Below are positions 11,050 to 37,073 of a stretch of 64,000 nt of DNA, piece after piece. The first letter of the stretch is position 1. Each line of letters opens with the position of its first letter. The DNA comes from a virus, in IMG/VR virus record IMGVR_UViG_3300045988_164636, positions 1-64,000 of that record; one strand, 5' to 3'. Position numbers and translations under genes: made by a program. The notes beneath the pieces were generated by a model. The model worked only from the letters and a program-made list of their open reading frames with translations, had not been told where the DNA came from and did no database searches.

Positions 11050-11771
11050 ATATATTTTCCGCCAAAAATATTGATATATACATAATATTTAGTCATTATT
11101 TGGCGGAAAATATTATTTTTTACTTACTGTTGTTAGCTATGATAAAATGATAATATTGCGGAACGAGTATATATTCGCACCAAAGTATTGTACTTAAAAA
11201 AATTAGCAAATTTTACTTAATGCCCTCAATACCTTGCCGCATAAATCATTGATAAGCTCCGGGCAGAGCGCGAGAGTCACGCTCTGTTATTCTCTTTTCC
11301 CTAGCCCTATATGCAAAATTTTGATGAAAAAAGTTAAGTCGAAATTAATCTTCGTCTTTCCCAAAACTTTATTTTATTTTCTTGAAATTTAAGGCTACAA
11401 TCTTAAATTAATCTTATAAACGAATATGAGTTCGTATCAAGATTTTCATTTTAAAAAAAGTAAGCAAATTCTTCTTGCGGCAGTTCTTAGGATTCTATAC
11501 AGCCGCACTCCACATTTTTAAAGAACAGCCCGCCAAAAATTCATAGATTTTCATCTTCTTTTGTGAGCAACAGCACAGCAAATAAATGGTTTGTGATTAT
11601 GAGTTTGTTTCGTAGAAAATAATATATAATTTTTTCTACAAATGATTAATATTCCTTATTCTTGCGGGCGGATTGCAAAGGTGTAAGCCCATAACCTCAC
11701 CAAAATTTTCCATATATGCAAATTTTTTATAAATAAAGTTATATCTGGAAAAAATGGAAAAATTCCCGCAA

Positions 11772-11800
11772 TTGACTTTGTTTAAAATTTATGTTATAAT
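11772..11800 (+). promoter_or_regulatory. promoter TTGACT-17-TGtTATAAT
   Basis: -35 at 11772-11777, -10 at 11795-11800. Confidence 0.65.
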
Positions 11801-11827
11801 ATTTAAAAAAGGATTCTTTAAATTCAC

Positions 11828-11856
11828 TTGACTTTTACTAAAAATTATGTTATAAT
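11828..11856 (+). promoter_or_regulatory. promoter TTGACT-17-TGtTATAAT
   Basis: -35 at 11828-11833, -10 at 11851-11856; near-identical copy at 12945-12973. Confidence 0.7.
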
Positions 11857-11890
11857 AAAAATGAGAAAATAAAAGAAAGGAGTGAAATAA

Positions 11891-12295
11891 ATGGAAGTAG
11901 CTTGTAACCAAAAGATAGTCATAGTTGATAAATCTCCCGCCGATAAAAATCATAAATATTCTACTATTAATTTAGAAGCTTGGAAAAATGCTATGAGCAA
12001 ACTTAATAATACTACCTATAAATTATGGGATTATATTATGTTTAATCAGAATAAATATAAATTTGCATTATCCGCAGTTGACTTTTGCAATGTAAGTGGA
12101 GCCAGTCGTTCTACTTATAAAAGAGCGGTAAATGAATTAATTGAAAAAGGCTTTCTAGTATTAACTAACGAAGCTCGCAATGAATATACATTCTATGACT
12201 ATCCTAATCGAGATACAATGCCCGCAACAGAAGATGATATTAATATATCAATAGCAAATGATAATTGCATTAATGCGGAAGGCTTTGTATTTTAA
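11891..12295 (+). CDS. wHTH DNA-binding protein (replication-organizer-like N-terminal fold), paralog A
   Basis: YKLWDYI...FALS..DFC..SGASRSTYKRAVNELIEKGFL aligns with 12573-12869; RBS AAAGGAG. Confidence 0.6.
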   Translation: MEVACNQKIVIVDKSPADKNHKYSTINLEAWKNAMSKLNNTTYKLWDYIMFNQNKYKFALSAVDFCNVSGASRSTYKRAVNELIEKGFLVLTNEARNEYTFYDYPNRDTMPATEDDINISIANDNCINAEGFVF

Positions 12296-12500
12296 ATAGA
12301 TGGCTCATTGATGAGCCATTTTCAATAATTTGAATCACGAATGGGCTAGCTGGCTCATTGATGAGCAATTTTTATCTTAACATGGCTCACTGATGATCAG
12401 AGTTAGCCCATTCGTGATCAATTTTTATCTTATTTTTAATCACGGATGGGCTACAAATATTACAAATAATACATATATTACAATTGTAATATTACAGGGG
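12296..12500. repeat. iteron/operator field
   Basis: TGGCTCATTGATGAGCCA-type dyads at 12301, 12351, 12383; AATCACGRATGGGCTA at 12333, 12404(rev), 12437; CAATTTTTATCTTA twice; ATTACAATTGTAAT palindrome at 12476. Confidence 0.8.
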
Positions 12501-12520
12501 AAATATTACCCGCAGTTGCA

Positions 12521-27214: not shown

Positions 27215-27240
27215 CTTTTGATTTTTATAAAAATTTTTGT

Positions 27241-27246
27241 TATAAT
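27241..27246 (+). promoter_or_regulatory. class II promoter -10 driving tRNA island A
   Basis: TTTTTATAAAAATTTTTGTTATAATATATATG, 30 nt upstream of the first tRNA. Confidence 0.6.
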
Positions 27247-27275
27247 ATATATGTGAGTTAATTCTCACATAATAT

Positions 27276-27349: not shown

Positions 27350-27673
27350 GCCGCAGTTGGTTATTACGAATCTGCGATGAAAACAAAATTTGTAATAAAT
27401 ATAAGAATGGTAGTTTAATAAAAATTCTGTCATATGCGGAGATGCAGGTAAAGAATCCTGAACGTTCTTATTTTAAATGTAATTACATTTTTGTCTTTTG
27501 GGTTTATTTAGACAATAAAGAAAATAAAACAGCATAAGCTACGCTATAGGAGCTGTACTGTGAGTTCAGGTAAAAACTTCGACTTTATTAACTAAGACGT
27601 GAGGGAGTTAATCGGCTTATGAAATTTCGATGACGGGAAATTTTAGGGTTGCAACCTTGATAGCAGTATATAC
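27350..27673 (+). ncRNA. ORF-free 324-nt spacer, candidate structured RNA
   Basis: No credible ORF; starts with GCCGCAGTT as does the spacer at 33677; local hairpins. Confidence 0.3.
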
Positions 27674-27750: not shown

Positions 27751-27755
27751 TTAGA

Positions 27756-27986
27756 AGAGCTGGTTAGTTTAATGGCTAAAACGAAATCGAGTCGTTAAAT
27801 GATAAATTCAAGTATTCTTTTGAAATTTAGTTCATTTCAACTGAATAAACTAAATTTATTGATTTAAATGTCAAACGGATCCAATTGAGGTGCACCAATT
27901 TTTTACTGACGGATTTAGAAGTTAGAACTAAGAACTTCATTGACACAACAAGATTTAATGCGGGTTCGATTCCCGTACTGGCTCTT
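27756..27986 (+). ncRNA. tRNA-like element with about 160-nt insertion
   Basis: 5' AGAGCTG + D-like TTAG/CTAA + hairpin AACGA-AATCGAG-TCGTT; 3' GCGGG-TTCGATT-CCCGT + TGGCTCT pairing with the 5' end (2 G-U pairs). Confidence 0.3.
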
Positions 27987-27991
27987 AATAT

Positions 27992-28116
27992 GTGGAGGTA
28001 GCCCAACGGCAGAGGCAATGGACTTGTGGAGTGATCGGTATCATTAATTGGTTCAACTCCAATACTTCGCACCAAAAATCCATTCAGTGTGGGTTCGAAT
28101 CCCATTCTCCGCACCA
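27992..28116 (+). tRNA. tRNA interrupted in the anticodon loop by a 49-nt tRNA-like minihelix (28026-28074)
   Basis: Outer acceptor GTGGAGG/TCTCCGC, anticodon stem ATGGA 28018-28022 / TCCAT 28079-28083, T GTGGG-TTCGAAT-CCCAT, A73, CCA. Insert has its own acceptor GTGGAGT/ACTTCGC, T arm ATTGG-TTCAACT-CCAAT and A-CCA. Confidence 0.6.
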
Positions 28117-30705: not shown

Positions 30706-30782
30706 ACGAGTGTGGTGCAATTGGTAGACACAGAGGCTTCAAGTACCTCCATTTCTGGGTTCGAATCCCAGCACTTGTACCA
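30706..30782 (+). tRNA. class I tRNA with anticodon CAA and Leu-type D arm
   Basis: Acceptor ACGAGTG/CACTTGT, D GTG-CAATTGGTAGA-CAC, loop UUCAAGU, variable CATTT, T CTGGG-TTCGAAT-CCCAG, A73, CCA. Confidence 0.7.
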
Positions 30783-30787
30783 AATAT

Positions 30788-30864
30788 GCGGAGATGGCTT
30801 AGCTGGTTAAAGCATCTGACTGATATTCAGAAGATCTTGAGTTCGAATCTCAATCTCCGTACCA
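30788..30864 (+). tRNA. tRNA-Ile (GAU)
   Basis: Acceptor GCGGAGA/TCTCCGT, anticodon stem TCTGA/TCAGA with loop CUGAUAU, T TTGAG-TTCGAAT-CTCAA, CCA. Confidence 0.85.
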
Positions 30865-30869
30865 TATAT

Positions 30870-30964
30870 GGAGGCGTAACCCTAATTGGTAAGGGATCGG
30901 TTTGCTAAACCGAGAGTAATCAGTTTATACTGGTGTGATGGTTCAAATCCATCCGCCTCCGCCA
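30870..30964 (+). tRNA. tRNA-Ser (GCU), class II
   Basis: Acceptor GGAGGCG/CGCCTCC, loop UUGCUAA, long variable arm, T GATGG-TTCAAAT-CCATC, G73, CCA. Confidence 0.85.
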
Positions 30965-32512: not shown

Positions 32513-32746
32513 ATGCAGACGATTTATAAGATGAAGTTAAATACAATTAATGATGTTAAGTCTTTTGTCGATGCGGCAAATGAATATAAGGGAAGAATTA
32601 CTGTCCGCAATATGCACTACGCTGTAGACGGAAAGTCAATCATGGGAATTTTTTCAATTGATTTGTCGGGTATTCTTGATGTAGAATTTGATAATGAACC
32701 CAGTAATGAAATACTTGATTTATTTAAGAGTTGGAGAGTTAAGTGA
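32513..32746 (+). CDS. HPr-like domain protein lacking the His15 site
   Basis: AVDGKSIMGIFSIDL resembles the HPr Ser46 region (KSIMG..SL); no HARPA motif. Confidence 0.45.
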   Translation: MQTIYKMKLNTINDVKSFVDAANEYKGRITVRNMHYAVDGKSIMGIFSIDLSGILDVEFDNEPSNEILDLFKSWRVK

Positions 32747-33198
32747 AGGAAGTTCATATTTTAATAGGAATCCCCGCAAGTGGTAAATCTACTTTTGCTA
32801 AAAATTTTGTTTTCTCTCATAAAGGGTACAAAATTGTATCAACAGATGATATAAGATGGAAGTTATTTGGAGATGCAAGTATACAGGGAAATCCTAAGAT
32901 GATTTTTGCTATTGCTCACAAAGAAATTATGTCTTATTTAGATAAAGGATATAATGTTATATTTGACGCAACAAATATATCAAGAAAAAATCGAGTAAAT
33001 CTTATTAATTTTTTAAAAGAATGTGAAGTAGAAAATGTTGTGGCGGATTATTTTCCTGTTACAATAGATGTTGCTCTTGAGAGAAATCAGCAAAGAAAAA
33101 GACACGTTCCAGAAAAAGTTATTCATAAGATGTTTGGCAAAATTGAGAAGCCTAAATATGAGGAAGGATTTTCAGAAATAAATTGCCACAACGATTAA
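32743..33198 (+). CDS. P-loop kinase (polynucleotide-kinase / AAA_33-like)
   Basis: GIPASGKST Walker A, STDDIR, FDATN. Confidence 0.6.
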   Translation: MKEVHILIGIPASGKSTFAKNFVFSHKGYKIVSTDDIRWKLFGDASIQGNPKMIFAIAHKEIMSYLDKGYNVIFDATNISRKNRVNLINFLKECEVENVVADYFPVTIDVALERNQQRKRHVPEKVIHKMFGKIEKPKYEEGFSEINCHND

Positions 33199-33222
33199 TT
33201 TGAAAAAATAAAAAATTTTTGT

Positions 33223-33228
33223 TATAAT
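33223..33228 (+). promoter_or_regulatory. class II promoter -10 driving tRNA island C
   Basis: AAAAATAAAAAATTTTTGTTATAATATATATACAG. Confidence 0.6.
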
Positions 33229-33281
33229 ATATATACAGTTTGAGAAAGAAATAAAAATTAAAAAATCTCAAACTTAGATAT

Positions 33282-33357
33282 TGCGGGATGATGCAGAGGT
33301 AACATGTTAGCTTAGTAAAACTAATTACAGAGGGTTCAAGTCCTTCTCCCGCCACCA
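33282..33357 (+). tRNA. tRNA-like gene with expanded (8-10 nt) anticodon loop and U1-C72 mismatch
   Basis: Acceptor TGCGGGA/TCCCGCC, D ATGC/ACAT, anticodon stem TTAG(C)/(A)CTAA with loop UUAGUAAA, T GAGGG-TTCAAGT-CCTTC, A73, CCA. Confidence 0.5.
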
Positions 33358-33597
33358 GTGGATTTTCATATTCCGCTTTCTACGAGCGATAGCTTGCATG
33401 AGAAGTAGACGGGACCGGTCATCAATGATTGCAAGGTTGAGAACTTCCGCTTCAATTCCTTTAAATAGTTATATCTCCTGCGGGAATATGACAGCCTTGA
33501 AATTGCGATAGAGAGGTAGGTTTTATGGGAAGATAGCATAAAAAATGCACTTGATTGCAATGAGGGATATTGGTTGAAATCCAATTCTTCTCACCAA
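33358..33597 (+). ncRNA. ORF-free spacer ending in a tRNA-like T arm + acceptor + CCA
   Basis: 3' end ATTGG-TTGAAAT-CCAAT TCTTCTC A CCA; candidate 5' partners GAGAAGT (33400) or GAGAGGT (33511), but no canonical D or anticodon arms. Confidence 0.3.
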
Positions 33598-33600
33598 TAT

Positions 33601-33676
33601 GGAGATGTAGCTCAGATGGTAGAGCAACGGGCTTTTAATCCGTGAGCCAAGGGTTCGAACCCCTTCATCTTCACCA
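33601..33676 (+). tRNA. tRNA-Lys (UUU)
   Basis: Acceptor GGAGATG/CATCTTC, D GCTC/GAGC, loop CUUUUAA, T AAGGG-TTCGAAC-CCCTT, A73, CCA. Confidence 0.9.
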
Positions 33677-34102
33677 GCCGCAGTTTCTTATATAATTAAT
33701 CTGAGGGACTAAATTAAAATTGATTATATAGAGAGAATAAACATGGATTTAGTAGATAAACTACCACCGATTGATTAATTCAAGTATGTGGCTCGTGGCT
33801 TAAACTCTCTACAAAAAATAAGGCAAAGTAATCTACAATATGGTATTATCTGTACCAAGGTCTTAACCTCGAGACCTTATAAATAAAGAAGGAGATAATT
33901 GCTCTACTCGTAGTCTCATTAGCTTTAAAAGCAACAGAACGAGGACTAACTAAGTGATTCATGAGTCACTGGTTAGGTTCAGTAGTAGATTTAGCCTGTA
34001 TCGGCTTGGTGTACGAGAAATTGCGTCATAGACGTGGTTTCTGAGGCACGCTGGAGAATTTAGACATCCAGAGGAAGTAGATCCTACTACTGAATTAAAT
34101 AT
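33677..34102 (+). ncRNA. 426-nt ORF-free, highly structured RNA candidate
   Basis: Helices TTCAGTAGTAG/CTACTACTGAA (11 bp, enclosing about 95 nt), AAGGTCT/AGACCTT, CTGGA/TCCAG, CGTG/CACG, TATATAAT/ATTATATA; contains TAAGGCAAAG...CAATATGG. Confidence 0.4.
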
Positions 34103-34179
34103 GGCACCATCTTCTAATAAGGTCAGGAAACCGGTCTTTCACATCGGTAATATGGGTTCAAATCCCGTTGGTGTCACCA
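34103..34179 (+). tRNA. tRNA-Glu (UUC)
   Basis: Acceptor GGCACCA/TGGTGTC, anticodon stem CCGGT/ATCGG, loop CUUUCAC, T ATGGG-TTCAAAT-CCCGT, A73, CCA. Confidence 0.8.
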
Positions 34180-34184
34180 AATTT

Positions 34185-34263
34185 ACGTCATTAGCTCAGC
34201 TGGATTAGTAGCAACCGCCTTCTAAGCGGTAGGTCATAGGTTCGAATCCTATATGGCGTGCCA
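34185..34263 (+). tRNA. tRNA-Arg (UCU)
   Basis: Acceptor ACGTCAT/ATGGCGT, anticodon stem ACCGC/GCGGT, loop CUUCUAA, T ATAGG-TTCGAAT-CCTAT, G73, CCA. Confidence 0.85.
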
Positions 34264-34303
34264 ATCAAAAGAATTTTAATAATTATGGTTATTGATTCTG
34301 TTT

Positions 34304-34379
34304 ACCGGTATAGCTTAGTCGGTAAAGCGTCGGACTGTTAATCCGTAGACCGTAGGTTCAAGTCCTACTACCGGTGCCA
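34304..34379 (+). tRNA. tRNA-Asn (GUU)
   Basis: Acceptor ACCGGTA/TACCGGT, loop CUGUUAA, T GTAGG-TTCAAGT-CCTAC, G73, CCA. Confidence 0.85.
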
Positions 34380-34560
34380 ATGTCGTAGTTTGTATGTTTA
34401 CAGCGACTTTAAATAAATTGATTAGACATTCTATCAGGCTCATGTTGTTAGCACCTTTTGTGAAATTAGCTAATCTAAGTTAGCCGCCATCCTGATAAAA
34501 ATAAAAACTTTGCGAACAAAAGAGTGTAAGCGGATAATGCTTAGACATTTCCGTGTATTA
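34380..34560 (+). ncRNA. ORF-free 181-nt spacer with nested hairpins
   Basis: ATCAGG...CCTGAT stem (34431/34489) enclosing GCTAA/TTAGC; no tRNA cloverleaf. Confidence 0.25.
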
Positions 34561-34636
34561 GCTGGAATAGCATAATTGGTGATGCAACGCTCTTGTAAAG
34601 CGGAGACTGTAGGTTCGAGTCCCACTTCCAGCACCA
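34561..34636 (+). tRNA. tRNA-Thr (UGU)
   Basis: Acceptor GCTGGAA/TTCCAGC, D GCAT/ATGC, loop CUUGUAA, T GTAGG-TTCGAGT-CCCAC, A73, CCA. Confidence 0.85.
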
Positions 34637-34641
34637 TTTAT

Positions 34642-34715
34642 GTGGATATAGTTCAATGGTAGAATGCTAGCCTTCCAAGCTAGATATGCGAGCTCAATTC
34701 TCGTTATCCACTCCA
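34642..34715 (+). tRNA. tRNA-Gly (UCC)
   Basis: Acceptor GTGGATA/TATCCAC, anticodon stem CTAGC/GCTAG, loop CUUCCAA, T GCGAG-CTCAATT-CTCGT, U73, CCA. Confidence 0.8.
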
Positions 34716-34918
34716 TCAAGAACACCTCTTTCACTCTAAAAAGTTAAATTCTTGGAATTAATGATCAAACAACATAAAATCCGATGTTTTGTATTGGTAG
34801 TTGAAAAATAAAAAGGAATAATATTAGCAACAATATTATTATACTTATATTTTTTGAGTGCCATAGTTTTAGGTTAATAGAGTGGAGAATAAAAGGTTGC
34901 TATTTTATTCTCCGATAT

Positions 34919-34992
34919 TGCACAGTCGCCAAGTGGCAAAAGGCAGTAGACCTTGACTCTACCATTCGCTAGTTCGAATCTAGCCTGTGCAG
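34919..34992 (+). tRNA. tRNA-Gln (UUG) with C33, no encoded CCA
   Basis: Acceptor TGCACAG/CTGTGCA (U1-A72), Gln-type D arm TCGCCAAGTGGCAAAAGGC, anticodon stem GTAGA/TCTAC with loop CCUUGAC, T GCTAG-TTCGAAT-CTAGC, G73. Confidence 0.75.
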
Positions 34993-35287
34993 GACCAACG
35001 TCTTTAGTAACCTCCCCGTGGTGTTGGTTGGGTAATTCTAATACTAAAGTTTCGATAGAGGACACTTCCTCATAAAGCGGCTACAGCAAATATTCTTATA
35101 AATTGGATTATGAAAAATTTTTTCCGCTTTGTTAATTTATTTAAGACGGACAAACAGCAACTTCAAATGATAAATTATTTTTATGTTAAGCCTCCTTCCA
35201 TCCGTCTTGAAAATAGAAAGAGCCTTACAGCAAATATTCTTATAATACTTTTTATTATATTAATTAGGCTCTTGTATTTACAAAAAA

Positions 35288-35327
35288 TGCGGAATGATAA
35301 TATAAAAATCATTCCGCATTTTTTAAT
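35288..35327. terminator. bidirectional terminator hairpin
   Basis: AAAAAATGCGGAATGAT-loop-ATCATTCCGCATTTTTT. Confidence 0.75.
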
Positions 35328-35344
35328 ATAGAAAGGAATTAACT

Positions 35345-35623
35345 ATGGTATCATTTGAATTAAAAGAAAATCAAACTGGATATGAAGTCATAGAAGATTA
35401 TTTTGTAAAAAAATTTAATTTTCGTTTAGGAATTTATGAACAATATCTTGTTGCTTTGGAAATATCATATGATAATGTTTATTGGACAAGAGTTACAGAT
35501 ATATTACAAACAGATTCAATGTATTTTGAATGGGGTATAGATTGGTATGAAGGTGAAAAATATATTCATCTTTTAGGTGTTAAAAATATAGAAGATATTG
35601 ACATTATTGGAGAAGGAGTTTAA
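35345..35623 (+). CDS. hypothetical protein
   Basis: 92-aa ORF, RBS AAAGGAA. Confidence 0.55.
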   Translation: MVSFELKENQTGYEVIEDYFVKKFNFRLGIYEQYLVALEISYDNVYWTRVTDILQTDSMYFEWGIDWYEGEKYIHLLGVKNIEDIDIIGEGV

Positions 35624-35624
35624 A

Positions 35625-37073
35625 ATGACAATTACTGAACAACTTACAGATATGTTATCAGAAAAAAGAACTGAAAATGGAGCAATCTCATGGAGTACAA
35701 CACAGTCTAGAATTATAGATATGTTTGCTTCAATAGGCGGCAAAAGAAATGCTTCAACAGAAGAAATAGAAAATATATATCTTGCCGCACGAACAGAAAA
35801 TGCGGATTTAGCTGACAAGATGATTTTCTATTGTAGAGATATTCTTGGGGGACTGGGAGAAAGACGTATTGGAAGAATATTGCTTCATAAATTAGCTTGT
35901 ATTGACCCTGATAAAATGAAAAGAAATTTTAACTTAATTGCAAAGTATGGTAGATGGGATGACTTTTATTGTTTAGAATATACTCCCTGTGAAATGGATA
36001 TGTGGGAATATTTATATGGACAACTTATATTCGATCATATGGAATATACGTTACGCACTGGAAATGTTTCATTACTTGCTAAATGGCTTAAGAGTGAAAA
36101 TGCTTCTTCTGCGGAAGCTAAAAGACTTGCCCGCAAGTTTTGTCAGATAAATAATATCTCTTATAAAAAGTATAGAAAGATACTTTCAGAATTAAGAAAA
36201 TATATAAATGTAATTGAAACTAAAATATCTAAAAATGAATGGAATACAATTGAATATTCAACTATTCCTTCAATAGCTCATCATAAATATTCAAGTGCTT
36301 TTGCAAAACATGATAGAGAAAGATATACAGAATATCTTGAAAAATTAAAATCAAATAGTCCAGAAGTAAAGATAAATGCAAAGACGATAACTCCCGCAAC
36401 AATTATTTCAAATATATCTAATCCAGCGGCAGAAGCTCAGTGGAATGCCTTACCTAACTATTTTACTGGTAACAAGAATATCATTTGTTGTGCAGATGTT
36501 AGTGGTTCAATGAGGTATAGTGGCTGTTGTTCGGGAACTCAACCAATAGATAATTCAATAGGATTAGCAATGTATTGTGCAATGCACAATAATGGAATTT
36601 ATAAAAATAAATATTTGACTTTTACTGATAAACCTACATTAATTGAATATGATTCAAAAAGAGATTTAGCATATAACGTTGGACGAGCAAAAACTCATAT
36701 AGGATATAACACTAATCTCGATGGAATGTTTGAAGCAATTTATGAGGCGGCATCCGCAGCACACAGGTCACCAGAAGGTCTTGTAATTGTTTCAGATATG
36801 GAAATAGATAGCTTTTTAGCAGAAAATAAAACAGATGGCATAGTTGATAAGTGGTCAAAAAAGTTCCATGCTGCTGAGCTTGCATTTTTCCCCGTTGTAT
36901 TTTGGAATGTTGATGCTCGTAATGACTTTACTATATTAAATAAAATTAAAAATCCTTATGTTAAATATGCAAGTGGCAATTCTCCTACAATATTTAGCAA
37001 TCTTGAAACAATTATGGATAAATCTCAGTATGATGCAATAGTAGAAATATTAAATAAGTATGAAGTGGTTTAA
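35625..37073 (+). CDS. DUF2828/Ro60(TROVE)-like helical domain + vWA domain protein
   Basis: Start at MTITEQL after GGAGAAGGAG; N-terminal TENGAISWSTT...RDILGGLGERR...YGRWDDF pattern; MIDAS motif DVSGSM. Confidence 0.5.
   Translation: MTITEQLTDMLSEKRTENGAISWSTTQSRIIDMFASIGGKRNASTEEIENIYLAARTENADLADKMIFYCRDILGGLGERRIGRILLHKLACIDPDKMKRNFNLIAKYGRWDDFYCLEYTPCEMDMWEYLYGQLIFDHMEYTLRTGNVSLLAKWLKSENASSAEAKRLARKFCQINNISYKKYRKILSELRKYINVIETKISKNEWNTIEYSTIPSIAHHKYSSAFAKHDRERYTEYLEKLKSNSPEVKINAKTITPATIISNISNPAAEAQWNALPNYFTGNKNIICCADVSGSMRYSGCCSGTQPIDNSIGLAMYCAMHNNGIYKNKYLTFTDKPTLIEYDSKRDLAYNVGRAKTHIGYNTNLDGMFEAIYEAASAAHRSPEGLVIVSDMEIDSFLAENKTDGIVDKWSKKFHAAELAFFPVVFWNVDARNDFTILNKIKNPYVKYASGNSPTIFSNLETIMDKSQYDAIVEILNKYEVV

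What the first reader, a model, noticed from the sequence alone, without database searches (positions are those of the whole stretch)
33677..34102. 426-nt highly structured non-coding RNA candidate between tRNA-Lys and tRNA-Glu
This stretch has no ORF with an RBS, yet many helices can be drawn by eye. TTCAGTAGTAG (33978) pairs with CTACTACTGAA (34084), enclosing the sub-hairpins CTGGA/TCCAG and CGTG/CACG. AAGGTCT pairs with AGACCTT (33857/33872), and TATATAAT pairs with ATTATATA near the 5' end. The segment AATAAGGCAAAGTAATCTACAATATGG recalls the TAAGGCAAAC...TATGG 3' region of IC3 group I introns found in bacterial tRNA genes. I could not identify flanking tRNA exon halves, so its class is open. 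It could be a free-standing ribozyme remnant, a large phage ncRNA or a processing scaffold.
Basis: seen in the sequence. Interest (0 to 1): 0.65.

Follow-up and report, generated by a model that had tools for sequence, protein, structure and literature searches.

The report
Two fused phage tRNA-array RNA modules
The 426-base gap between two tRNA genes of this uncultured gut phage is two separate conserved non-coding RNA cassettes that happen to be fused here: a well-supported, previously undescribed ~245-nt structured RNA, and a 166-nt cassette that opens with a recurring pseudoknot sitting directly after tRNA ends. Their functions are unknown.

Summary
It is not one RNA and not a group I intron. 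Related gut-phage contigs show two independent cassettes. Module A (33677-33842) occurs without B in five relatives. Module B (33857-34102) occurs without A in others. Only this window joins them directly, with a 15-nt direct repeat on either side of B.

Nearly all the folding signal comes from B (z -5.3; A -1.3). Twelve distinct B sequences keep 98% of 62 predicted pairs, with 5 compensatory pairs, 11 G-U pairs and hairpins of variable length on a fixed scaffold.

A is strongly conserved in sequence (A2 plus tail 99% identical to a phage whose genes are ~65% identical), but its fold is unproven. It begins with an H-type pseudoknot that recurs immediately after tRNA 3' CCA ends in four paralogous versions. 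Stem 1 is conserved; stem 2 differs completely yet always pairs.

Both modules lie on the tRNA strand, downstream of a strong promoter, with no terminator. They are therefore probably released by tRNA-processing enzymes, like T4 RNAC/RNAD or ROOL/GOLLD. Function is unknown, and transcript data could not be obtained.

The parts
33200..33228 (+). Sigma-70-type promoter (TTGAAA-17-TATAAT with a TG extension) that drives this block of the tRNA array
   Evidence: 11/12 match, best in the region. No terminator-like site in 32700-35700. The same promoter plus hairpin is repeated at ~27220 and twice in L006.
33601..33676 (+). tRNA-Lys(UUU) with encoded CCA; upstream boundary of the interval
   Evidence: 70.1 bits.
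33677..33731 (+). H-type pseudoknot (PK) starting at +1 after the CCA. Stem H1 is 33678-33683/33701-33706 (CCGCAG/CTGAGG, with a G.A mismatch in this copy; CTGCGG in relatives). Stem H2 is 33688-33700/33719-33731. The A-rich linker is 33707-33718.
   Evidence: The same architecture follows tRNA-Pro (27350-27398) and tRNA-Asn (34382-34429) in the window, and L006 11147-11200. H2 sequences are unrelated but complementary (13, 11, 10, 7 bp; shuffle P 0.001, 0.003, 0.018, 0.125). There is one compensatory A-U to G-C change within the A-type copies (pair 23-44).
33729..33811 (+). Module A, second domain (A2): proposed three-way junction. Closing helix TAGAGAG/CTCTCTA 33729-35/33805-11; CATGG/TCGTG 33742-46/33793-97; two inner hairpins.
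   Evidence: 98.9% of cells are paired, and all substitutions are G-U-compatible. Covariation is not significant (156/500 shuffles), so the fold is unproven.
33812..33842 (+). A-rich 3' tail of module A (CAAAAAATAAGGCAAAGTAATCTACAATATG); nearly invariant in 9 distinct copies
   Evidence: Together with A2 it is 110/111 identical between the window and L006.
33843..33856 (+). Junction GGTATTATCTGTAC, found only in this window. It is part of a 15-nt direct repeat (33837-33851 and 34098-34112, 80% identical) that flanks module B. It looks like a diverged copy of the 5' end of tRNA-Glu.
   Evidence: D3. In relatives a complete tRNA-Glu follows module A at this point.
33857..34102 (+). Module B: ~245-nt structured RNA. 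P1 33857-64/33871-78. P2 33891-94/33902-05. P3 33907-11/33939-43. P4 33946-59/33964-76. P5 clamp 33977-88/34084-95, closing a multi-branch with P6 34007-25/34033-50 and P7 34051-55/34067-71. Invariant single strands include AAGGAGA (33889-33895) and CAGAGGAA.
   Evidence: 12 distinct sequences, 62 pairs, 98.2% paired, 5 compensatory pairs, covariation score 0.126 versus <=0.043 for slid partners. 11/62 pairs are G-U.
34103..34179 (+). tRNA-Glu(UUC). Its 5' end (RNase P site) lies 7 nt after the last P5 pair (34095), immediately after B's short AU-rich tail.
   Evidence: In every other copy B is followed after 2-3 nt by tRNA-Leu(CAA).

Best explanation
The interval is a fusion of two independent accessory non-coding cassettes of a gut-phage tRNA array. 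Both are on the tRNA strand inside a promoter-driven, terminator-free polycistronic tRNA transcript. They are therefore made as RNA and cut out by the enzymes that mature the flanking tRNAs (inferred). RNase P cleavage at G34103 would set the 3' end, and cleavage at the CCA|G33677 junction would set the 5' end. In relatives B has its own 5' processing signal: a CCA-less, anticodon-arm-less tRNA-like element, which would be an RNase Z substrate. This window has lost that signal, so here A and B probably stay joined as one ~426-nt chimeric RNA. Module B is a self-contained folded RNA under selection for its base pairs (shown). It most likely acts in trans as a stable phage RNA, in the manner of T4 RNAC/RNAD or ROOL/GOLLD (inferred; target unknown). 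Module A opens with a pseudoknot that this phage group places directly after CCA-encoding tRNAs (shown). I think the pseudoknot most likely marks or creates the tRNA 3' end, for example as an acceptor/T-minihelix mimic cleaved by RNase P, which would leave CCA-3'OH in one cut. It would thus parallel the HDV-like ribozyme that abuts the CCA-less tRNA-Gln in the same array (inferred, untested).
For: Modularity: A occurs without B in L001, L006, L007, L046, L047. B occurs without A in L005, L029, L045 and others. Both occur with a tRNA-Glu between them in L002, L003, L010, L012. L007 is 98-100% identical to the window in the flanks but lacks B. B structure: z -5.3 versus -2.8 on the reverse strand. 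98.2% of cells are paired, there are 5 compensatory pairs (2/500 shuffles reach this), and covariation is 0.126 versus <=0.043 for slid partners. 11 G-U pairs fit only the + strand. Hairpins are deleted or swapped at fixed sites in L003, L005-type and L098. Context: B sits 2-3 nt upstream of a tRNA in all 17+ copies and directly after a tRNA-like element in all copies except the window's. There is a promoter and no terminator. PK: four paralogous types, all starting 0-2 nt after CCA, with conserved H1 and fully different but complementary H2. HDV-like ribozyme at 34993-35049, with P1 and P2 covarying between the window and L006. Phage tRNA islands are known homes of stable ncRNAs of unknown role (PMC3014915; PMC12286853), and of ribozymes that process tRNA 3' ends (PMC10879173).
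Against: The B copies are only 10-15% diverged and come from one phage clade, and the structure was derived from the same sequences. Module A has no significant covariation and an ordinary folding energy. Its near-identity across distant phages could reflect recent cassette exchange, because the tRNA Leu-Ile-Ser trio is also 97-99% identical. B is absent from a near-identical phage, so it is dispensable. Short stretches of B resemble tRNA junctions (D2), so it may have arisen from decayed tRNAs. The role proposed for the pseudoknot is pure inference. H1 shows almost no covariation, and the D-type H2 (7 bp) is not significant on its own.
Confidence: 0.6

Rival explanations
1. It is one 426-nt RNA gene, possibly a free-standing remnant of a group I (IC3-type) tRNA intron.
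For: A local string resembles an intron 3' end. Relatives do carry endonuclease-bearing inserts in tRNA genes of this array: an HNH ORF in the tRNA-Glu anticodon loop of L001 and L006, and a GIY-YIG ORF in L007.
Against: No Intron_gpI or any other Rfam hit at E<=10. The two halves occur separately in relatives. Module A lies between complete tRNAs. The 'GG' of 'TATGG' belongs to the next tRNA. B shows no similarity to the HNH or GIY-YIG inserts.
Confidence: 0.04
2. It is non-functional debris. The spacers are decayed tRNA genes and recombination scars. The helices are leftover tRNA stems, and the conservation reflects recent common ancestry or cassette exchange.
For: The array is highly mosaic. 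A 15-nt repeat flanks B (D3). B 34006-34029 resembles the tRNA-Glu/tRNA-Arg junction, 71% over 24 nt (D2). A truncated tRNA-like element precedes B in relatives. Modules A, C and D have ordinary folding energy. B is dispensable (L007).
Against: Substitutions in B stems preserve pairing far more often than neutral drift would allow: 98.2% paired, 24 extra pair types, 5 compensatory pairs, few disruptions. The strand asymmetry and G-U pairs point to RNA-level selection. A2 plus tail is 110/111 identical where the adjacent HNH ORF is 80% and the tRNA-Glu exon is much more diverged. PK stem H2 is maintained in four unrelated sequences.
Confidence: 0.17
3. Module B is a cis-acting 5' leader of the downstream tRNA. 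It would regulate or time RNase P processing or tRNA release rather than act as a free RNA.
For: B lies 2-3 nt upstream of a tRNA in every copy. Its 12-bp clamp ends 7-8 nt before the tRNA 5' end.
Against: The downstream tRNA differs (Glu in the window, Leu-CAA elsewhere). Relatives have the same tRNAs without B. No complementarity to the tRNA was seen. No T-box or other cis-regulatory model matches.
Confidence: 0.12
4. The pseudoknot is not a processing signal. It is either a protective cap that blocks exonucleases at the 5' end of the downstream RNA (or at the 3' side of the tRNA precursor), or a new small self-cleaving ribozyme that cuts at its own 5' end.
For: It is a compact H-type fold with an A-rich loop 3, like exonuclease-resistant or triplex pseudoknots. 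It starts exactly at +1 after CCA, as HDV-like ribozymes start at their cleavage site. Its H1/H2 topology equals P1/P2 of HDV-like ribozymes.
Against: In L006 (11147-11200) and after tRNA-Pro (27350-27398) no cargo RNA follows, only the next tRNA or tRNA-like element, which argues against a cap for cargo. There is no room for P3/L3/P1.1 or a catalytic J4/2 (0-1 nt between H2 5' and H1 3'), and no ribozyme model matches.
Confidence: 0.07

Closest known systems
T4 RNAC/RNAD (species 1 and 2), small stable RNAs of the T4 tRNA gene cluster
   Same: They are non-coding RNAs of unknown role encoded among phage tRNA genes on the same strand, and transcribed from the tRNA region (PMC3014915).
   Different: No sequence or structural relationship was tested or is expected. 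The T4 RNAs are shorter than B (from memory). The host and phage lineage differ. Accumulation of A and B as RNA is not shown.
ROOL and GOLLD large ornate phage RNAs
   Same: They are structured ncRNAs of phages and prophages, often next to tRNA islands, with unknown function and variable peripheral hairpins on a conserved scaffold (PMC12286853).
   Different: B is ~245 nt, against roughly 500-800+ nt. No Rfam ROOL or GOLLD hit even at E<=10. Oligomerisation is unknown. B is confined to one clade of uncultured gut phages.
HDV-like theta ribozymes next to gut-phage tRNAs
   Same: One is present in this same array (34993-35049). The PK motif shares its position (first base directly after the tRNA 3' end) and the nested P1/P2 pseudoknot topology (PMC10879173).
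   Different: The PK lacks P3, L3, P1.1 and the catalytic strand. It follows CCA-encoding tRNAs, whereas theta ribozymes mostly follow CCA-less tRNAs (4.5% have CCA; PMC10879173).
tRNA-like elements as processing signals (MALAT1-mascRNA; mitochondrial tRNA punctuation)
   Same: In relatives, an anticodon-arm-less, CCA-less tRNA-like element directly precedes B and a tRNA directly follows it. RNase Z and RNase P would therefore define both ends.
   Different: This is an analogy drawn from my own knowledge. Nothing was tested, and the window copy has lost the upstream tRNA-like element.
Group I IC3 introns in bacterial tRNA genes
   Same: There is a short string similarity near 33816-33842, and the general setting is a tRNA locus.
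   Different: It is not inside a tRNA, has no covariance-model match, has no exon halves, and its two parts are separable.

Membership tests
Group I intron (IC3, tRNA-inserted) | Interrupts a tRNA gene, with the exon halves flanking it | tested here: not met
   The interval lies between complete tRNA-Lys and tRNA-Glu. In 9 relatives module A is followed by a whole tRNA-Glu, or by one interrupted separately.
Group I intron (IC3, tRNA-inserted) | Conserved P3-P9 core detectable by the Rfam Intron_gpI covariance model | tested here: not met
   No hit at E<=10 in 33200-35100. None in L001 6800-10000 or L006 10400-13400.
Group I intron (IC3, tRNA-inserted) | Terminal omega-G at the 3' splice site | tested here: not met
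   The G's of 'ATATGG' are positions 1-2 of the tRNA-Glu acceptor stem in L001, L006, L007, L010 and L012.
HDV-like / theta ribozyme (for the PK motif) | First nucleotide (G1 of P1) directly follows the tRNA 3' end | tested here: met
   CCA|G in three PK types and CCA-AT|G in the fourth.
HDV-like / theta ribozyme (for the PK motif) | P3 hairpin with L3, P1.1 and a catalytic C in J4/2 | tested here: not met
   Only 0-1 nt separate the H2 5' strand from the H1 3' strand. There is no HDV-family hit at the PK sites, whereas the true HDV-like element at 34993-35049 scores 30.6 bits.
ROOL / GOLLD | Match to the family covariance model | tested here: not met
   No hit at the gathering threshold or at E<=10.
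ROOL / GOLLD | Phage or prophage location near tRNA islands | tested here: met
   The interval lies inside a 12-15-gene tRNA array of a ~124-kb tailed phage.
tRNA / tmRNA | Cloverleaf or tRNA-like domain detected by ARAGORN or Rfam | tested here: not met
   Nothing is called inside 33677-34102.
RNase P RNA | Covariance-model match, with CR-I before CR-V forming P4 | tested here: not met
   No Rfam hit. The strings ACAGAAC and GAGGAAA in B occur in the reverse order, which I judge a chance resemblance (sequence).
H-type pseudoknot riboswitch aptamers (SAM-II, preQ1) | Covariance-model match and a position in a 5' UTR | tested here: not met
   Only a noise-level SAM_alpha hit at the D-type PK (34381-34420; 14.7 bits against a gathering score of 36; E 3.5). 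The PK copies lie between tRNAs, not upstream of ORFs.
Stable RNAs of phage tRNA clusters (a kind, e.g. T4 RNAC/RNAD) | Encoded within the tRNA cluster on the tRNA strand, in one transcription unit | tested here: met
   Promoter at 33200-33228, no terminator-like site, same strand as all 12 tRNAs.
Stable RNAs of phage tRNA clusters (a kind, e.g. T4 RNAC/RNAD) | Accumulates as a discrete stable RNA during infection | not testable with these tools

The most novel reading that the evidence does not exclude
The pseudoknot that abuts CCA ends would be a new class of tRNA 3'-end-forming element. It would act either as a minimal self-cleaving RNA or as an RNase P-recruiting minihelix mimic that yields CCA-3'OH in one cut. 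This would complement the theta ribozymes that serve CCA-less tRNAs in the same arrays. Module B would be a new ornate phage RNA with a function of its own in infection, for example binding ribosomes or a host factor through its invariant AAGGAGA and CAGAGGAA strands.
Probability: 0.2. Interest if true: 0.8.

Novelty: new variant of a known kind. Interest (0 to 1): 0.55.

Why it matters
Phage tRNA islands keep yielding RNAs whose roles are unknown, such as T4 RNAC/RNAD, ROOL, GOLLD and theta ribozymes. This array carries at least three different RNA devices next to its tRNAs: an HDV-like ribozyme, a recurring CCA-abutting pseudoknot, and tRNA-like punctuation around a 245-nt folded RNA. That makes it a compact system for asking how phages mature their own tRNAs without relying on host 3' processing, and what the cargo RNAs do. 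Module B is small enough for probing, cryo-EM or crystallography. The pseudoknot hypothesis can be tested in a one-day in vitro assay.

Tried and rejected
- Rfam at gathering and at E<=10 found only tRNAs and a sub-threshold HDV-like hit outside the interval (window, L001, L006).
- blastn of the 426 nt against GenBank phages and PLSDB plasmids gave no match. The wider query 33200-35100 matched only tRNAs.
- The genome contigs pattern scan for B returned 13 hits, all chance: the nhmmer profile of B found nothing in them. Most of the 15-mer and 19-mer pattern hits in IMG/VR and the metagenomes were also chance, and were filtered with the B profile.
- No small ORF is conserved. The 11-codon ORF in A2 has a stop in most relatives. 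The TTG-ORF after AAGGAG in B varies from 4 to 21 codons and is absent in L003.
- Y-RNA/Ro idea: the neighbouring DUF2828+DUF7788 protein has no PDB relative by sequence. It occurs in 701 phage records of many kinds, so it is not specifically linked to A or B, and no YrlA hit was found. Not pursued.
- RNase P RNA idea for B: two short strings resemble CR-I and CR-V, but in the wrong order and with no model hit.
- I did not build a covariance model. Public collections cannot be searched with one here, and nhmmer on all 106 loci found no diverged copies.
- Transcript mapping was not available.

Full report
**Setting.** The window is an AT-rich tailed phage. It encodes gyrase A/B, NAD ligase, PhoH, tail proteins and a GH25 lysin. 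A tRNA array runs from ~27.2 to 35.0 kb, with 12 ARAGORN tRNAs and 3 more found only by Rfam. Close relatives are ~120-kb contigs from gut metagenomes. No cultured phage or plasmid matches the interval. The finding lies between tRNA-Lys(UUU) 33601-33676 and tRNA-Glu(UUC) 34103-34179.

**Observation.** The interval has no credible ORF and folds better than shuffled sequence (z -4.1). When I split the interval, the signal belongs to 33857-34102. That stretch scores z -5.3 on the + strand and -2.8 on the reverse strand. 33677-33842 scores -1.3, no better than random 200-nt windows of this genome (mean -1.1, sd 1.75). No Rfam family matches any part of it, even at E<=10.

**It is two cassettes, not one RNA.** blastn and nhmmer against contigs fetched from IMG/VR, JGI/ENA metagenomes and NCBI give these arrangements:
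- Module A (33677-33842) without B: L001, L006, L007, L046, L047.
- Module B (33857-34102) without A: L005, L029, L045 and others.
- Both present, separated by a complete tRNA-Glu, a GNRA hairpin and a truncated tRNA-like element: L002, L003, L010, L012.
- L007 is 98-100% identical to the window in the flanks, yet runs A, tRNA-Glu, tRNA-Gly with no B. B is therefore accessory.

Only the window joins A to B, through 14 unique bases. A 15-nt direct repeat (33837-51 and 34098-112, 80% identical) flanks B. This points to a recombination between copies of the A/tRNA-Glu junction.

**Module B.** I recovered 20 copies (12 distinct sequences, 85-90% identical). In every copy but the window's, the order is:
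- a tRNA ending in CCA;
- the hairpin GCCCGAAAGGG;
- a linker;
- a tRNA-like element with acceptor, D and T arms but no anticodon arm and no CCA;
- module B;
- 2-3 nt;
- tRNA-Leu(CAA).

RNAalifold gives seven to nine helices. These include a 12-bp clamp (33977-88/34084-95) that closes a multi-branch domain. On the 12-sequence alignment:
- 98.2% of pair cells are standard pairs, and 0/500 shuffles reach this.
- 5 pairs carry changes on both sides (2/500 shuffles). One of them comes from the poorly aligned L098 insert.
- There are 24 further pair types.
- The covariation score is 0.126, against <=0.043 when partners are slid by 1-3 columns.

Eleven of the 62 pairs are G-U in the window copy, so the fold exists only in the tRNA-sense RNA. 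Whole hairpins are deleted (L003), absent (L005 type) or replaced by a longer insert (L098) at fixed points, while the scaffold is kept. Two caveats apply. The structure was derived from these same sequences, and all of them come from one clade. I conclude that B is a real structured RNA family that does not match any described family I could test.

**Module A.** Nine distinct copies are 97% identical on average. A proposed pseudoknot plus three-way junction fits them (98.9% paired), but covariation within A is not significant (156/500). A has sharp boundaries. It follows tRNA-Lys in most phages and tRNA-Tyr in L006. Except in the window, it is always followed by tRNA-Glu.

Between the window and L006, identities are as follows:

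| Segment | Identity |
|---|---|
| A2 plus tail | 110/111 |
| Kinase and DUF2828 genes | ~65% (nt) |
| tRNA-Gly, -Gln, -Asn | 66-71% |
| HNH ORF beside A (L001 vs L006) | 80% |
| tRNA Leu-Ile-Ser trio | 97-99% |

Because the tRNA trio is also near-identical, recent cassette exchange cannot be separated from strong constraint.

**The pseudoknot.** The first 55 nt of A have this layout:
- G-Y-CGYAG (H1 5' strand);
- UUK;
- H2 5' strand;
- CWGCG (H1 3' strand);
- an A-rich linker (..AAAUWAA..);
- H2 3' strand.

The same layout follows tRNA-Pro (27350-27398) and tRNA-Asn (34382-34429) in the window. It also forms the whole 54-nt spacer between tRNA-Asn and tRNA-Trp in L006. H1 is conserved in sequence. 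H2 is unrelated between the four types yet complementary:
- 13 bp: TTATATAATTAAT / ATTGATTATATAG
- 11 bp: TTATTACGAAT / ATTTGTAATAA
- 10 bp: TGGTATTCGT / ACGAATACCA
- 7 bp: ATGTTTA / TAGACAT

An anchored-helix shuffle test gives P = 0.001, 0.003, 0.018 and 0.125. I combined these by Fisher's method to about 1e-5; that combination is my own arithmetic. Within the A type there is also one A-U to G-C compensation. All real instances start 0-2 nt after an encoded CCA. Pattern hits elsewhere lack this context and have only chance-level H2. A pattern scan of IMG/VR found the motif only in this phage clade. No Rfam model matches it apart from a noise-level SAM-II hit.

**How it probably works.**
- Shown: same strand as the tRNAs; a strong promoter at 33200-33228; no terminator-like site through 35700; tRNA or tRNA-like elements abutting the modules.
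- Inferred: the modules are co-transcribed with the tRNAs and released by RNase P (3' ends) and, in relatives, by RNase Z after the CCA-less tRNA-like element (5' end of B). In the window that element is missing, so a ~426-nt A-B chimera is the likely product.
- B would then be a stable trans-acting RNA like T4 RNAC/RNAD (PMC3014915) or ROOL/GOLLD (PMC12286853). Its target is unknown.
- For the pseudoknot I favour a role in forming the 3' end of CCA-encoding tRNAs. A compact structure right after CCA would otherwise block exonucleolytic trimming. The same array uses an HDV-like, P4-less ribozyme directly after the CCA-less tRNA-Gln (34993-49), with P1 and P2 fully covarying between the window and L006. 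That matches the published theta ribozymes (PMC10879173).
- Coaxial H1+H2, with the 5' end at G1, could mimic an acceptor/T minihelix for RNase P. This is untested.

**Rivals.**
- Group I remnant: rejected. There is no model hit, the element is not inside a tRNA, its halves are separable, and the 'GG' belongs to the next tRNA.
- Neutral debris: still possible for A. It is unlikely for B, given how well pairing is preserved.
- Cis leader for the downstream tRNA: possible, but the tRNA differs between copies.
- DNA-level site: disfavoured by the G-U pairs and by H2 covariation.

**Verdict.** B is a new structured RNA family of the phage-tRNA-island kind. The CCA-abutting pseudoknot is the more surprising element. 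Function is unresolved and transcript evidence is missing, so interest is moderate (0.55).

Noticed in passing
window 34993-35049 (+): An HDV-like, P4-less (theta-type) ribozyme lies directly after the discriminator base of the CCA-less tRNA-Gln. P1 GACCAAC/GTTGGTT, P2 CTTTAGTA/TACTAAAG, P3 ACC/GGT, L3 TCCCCGT, P1.1 GG. Rfam scores are sub-threshold (drz-agam-1 30.6 bits against 37). P1 and P2 covary fully with L006 13084-13140.
   Followed up: partly
window 27350-27398 and 34382-34429 (+); L006 11147-11200; L001 3466-3520: Further copies of the CCA-abutting H-type pseudoknot, after tRNA-Pro and tRNA-Asn, and as a whole tRNA-tRNA spacer in L006.
   Followed up: yes
window ~27752-27990 (+): A tRNA-like 5' part (acceptor plus D arm, AGAGCTGGTTAGTTTAATGGCTAAAAC) and a 3' part (GCGGGTTCGATTCCCGTACTGGCTCTT) are separated by ~190 nt. 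Rfam gives only a weak partial tmRNA 3'-end hit at 27961-27975 (13.6 bits). It could be an intron-bearing tRNA or a small tmRNA-like RNA. Its 5' part resembles the start of the HNH-bearing insert in L001 (7857-7920).
   Followed up: no
window 27992-28113 (+): Rfam tRNA hit of 122 nt (40 bits), with a ~50-nt hairpin-like insertion in the anticodon loop. ARAGORN misses it. It is overlapped by a mechanical 324-aa ORF.
   Followed up: no
L001 7857-8724; L006 ~11649-12503; L007 5611-6489; L046 893-1534: tRNA genes of this array are interrupted in relatives by ~870-nt inserts that carry homing-endonuclease ORFs. An HNH ORF sits between anticodon positions 35/36 of tRNA-Glu. A GIY-YIG ORF sits in the homolog of window 33282-33354. 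No group I model hit was found, and the tRNA-Glu insert does not end in G, so its nature (intron or disruptive insertion) is open.
   Followed up: partly
window 33355-33526, 34430-34560, 34716-34917, 35050-35344 (+): Other long spacers of the array are also conserved cassettes in relatives (79-99% identity). 34716-34917 (z -3.1) and 34994-35344 (z -5.5) fold unusually well. 33355-33526 and 34380-34560 do not.
   Followed up: partly
L010 323-381, L002 1041-1099 (-), L005 4256-4313 and others: The truncated tRNA-like element directly upstream of module B in relatives has acceptor, D and T arms but no anticodon arm and no CCA. Its 5' and 3' parts match complete tRNA(UAU) genes of other phages (L086-L106).
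   Followed up: partly
window 32743-33198 and 35598-37073 (+): The tRNA block is bracketed by an AAA_33/KTI12-like P-loop kinase and a DUF2828+DUF7788 protein with a DxSGS motif. The latter has homologs in 701 GenBank phage records of many host groups, one of them annotated 'RNA-binding protein'. The synteny is kept in L006.
   Followed up: partly
window 27220-27275 and 33200-33281 (+); L006 10430-10500 and 11290-11355: A promoter cassette (AAAATTTTTGTTATAATATATAT) followed by a hairpin is repeated in front of separate tRNA blocks.
   Followed up: partly
window 30706-30964 vs L006 8903-9161: The tRNA Leu(CAA)-Ile(GAU)-Ser(GCU) trio is 97-99% identical between phages whose protein genes are ~65% identical at the nucleotide level. 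This indicates mosaic exchange of tRNA-array cassettes.
   Followed up: partly
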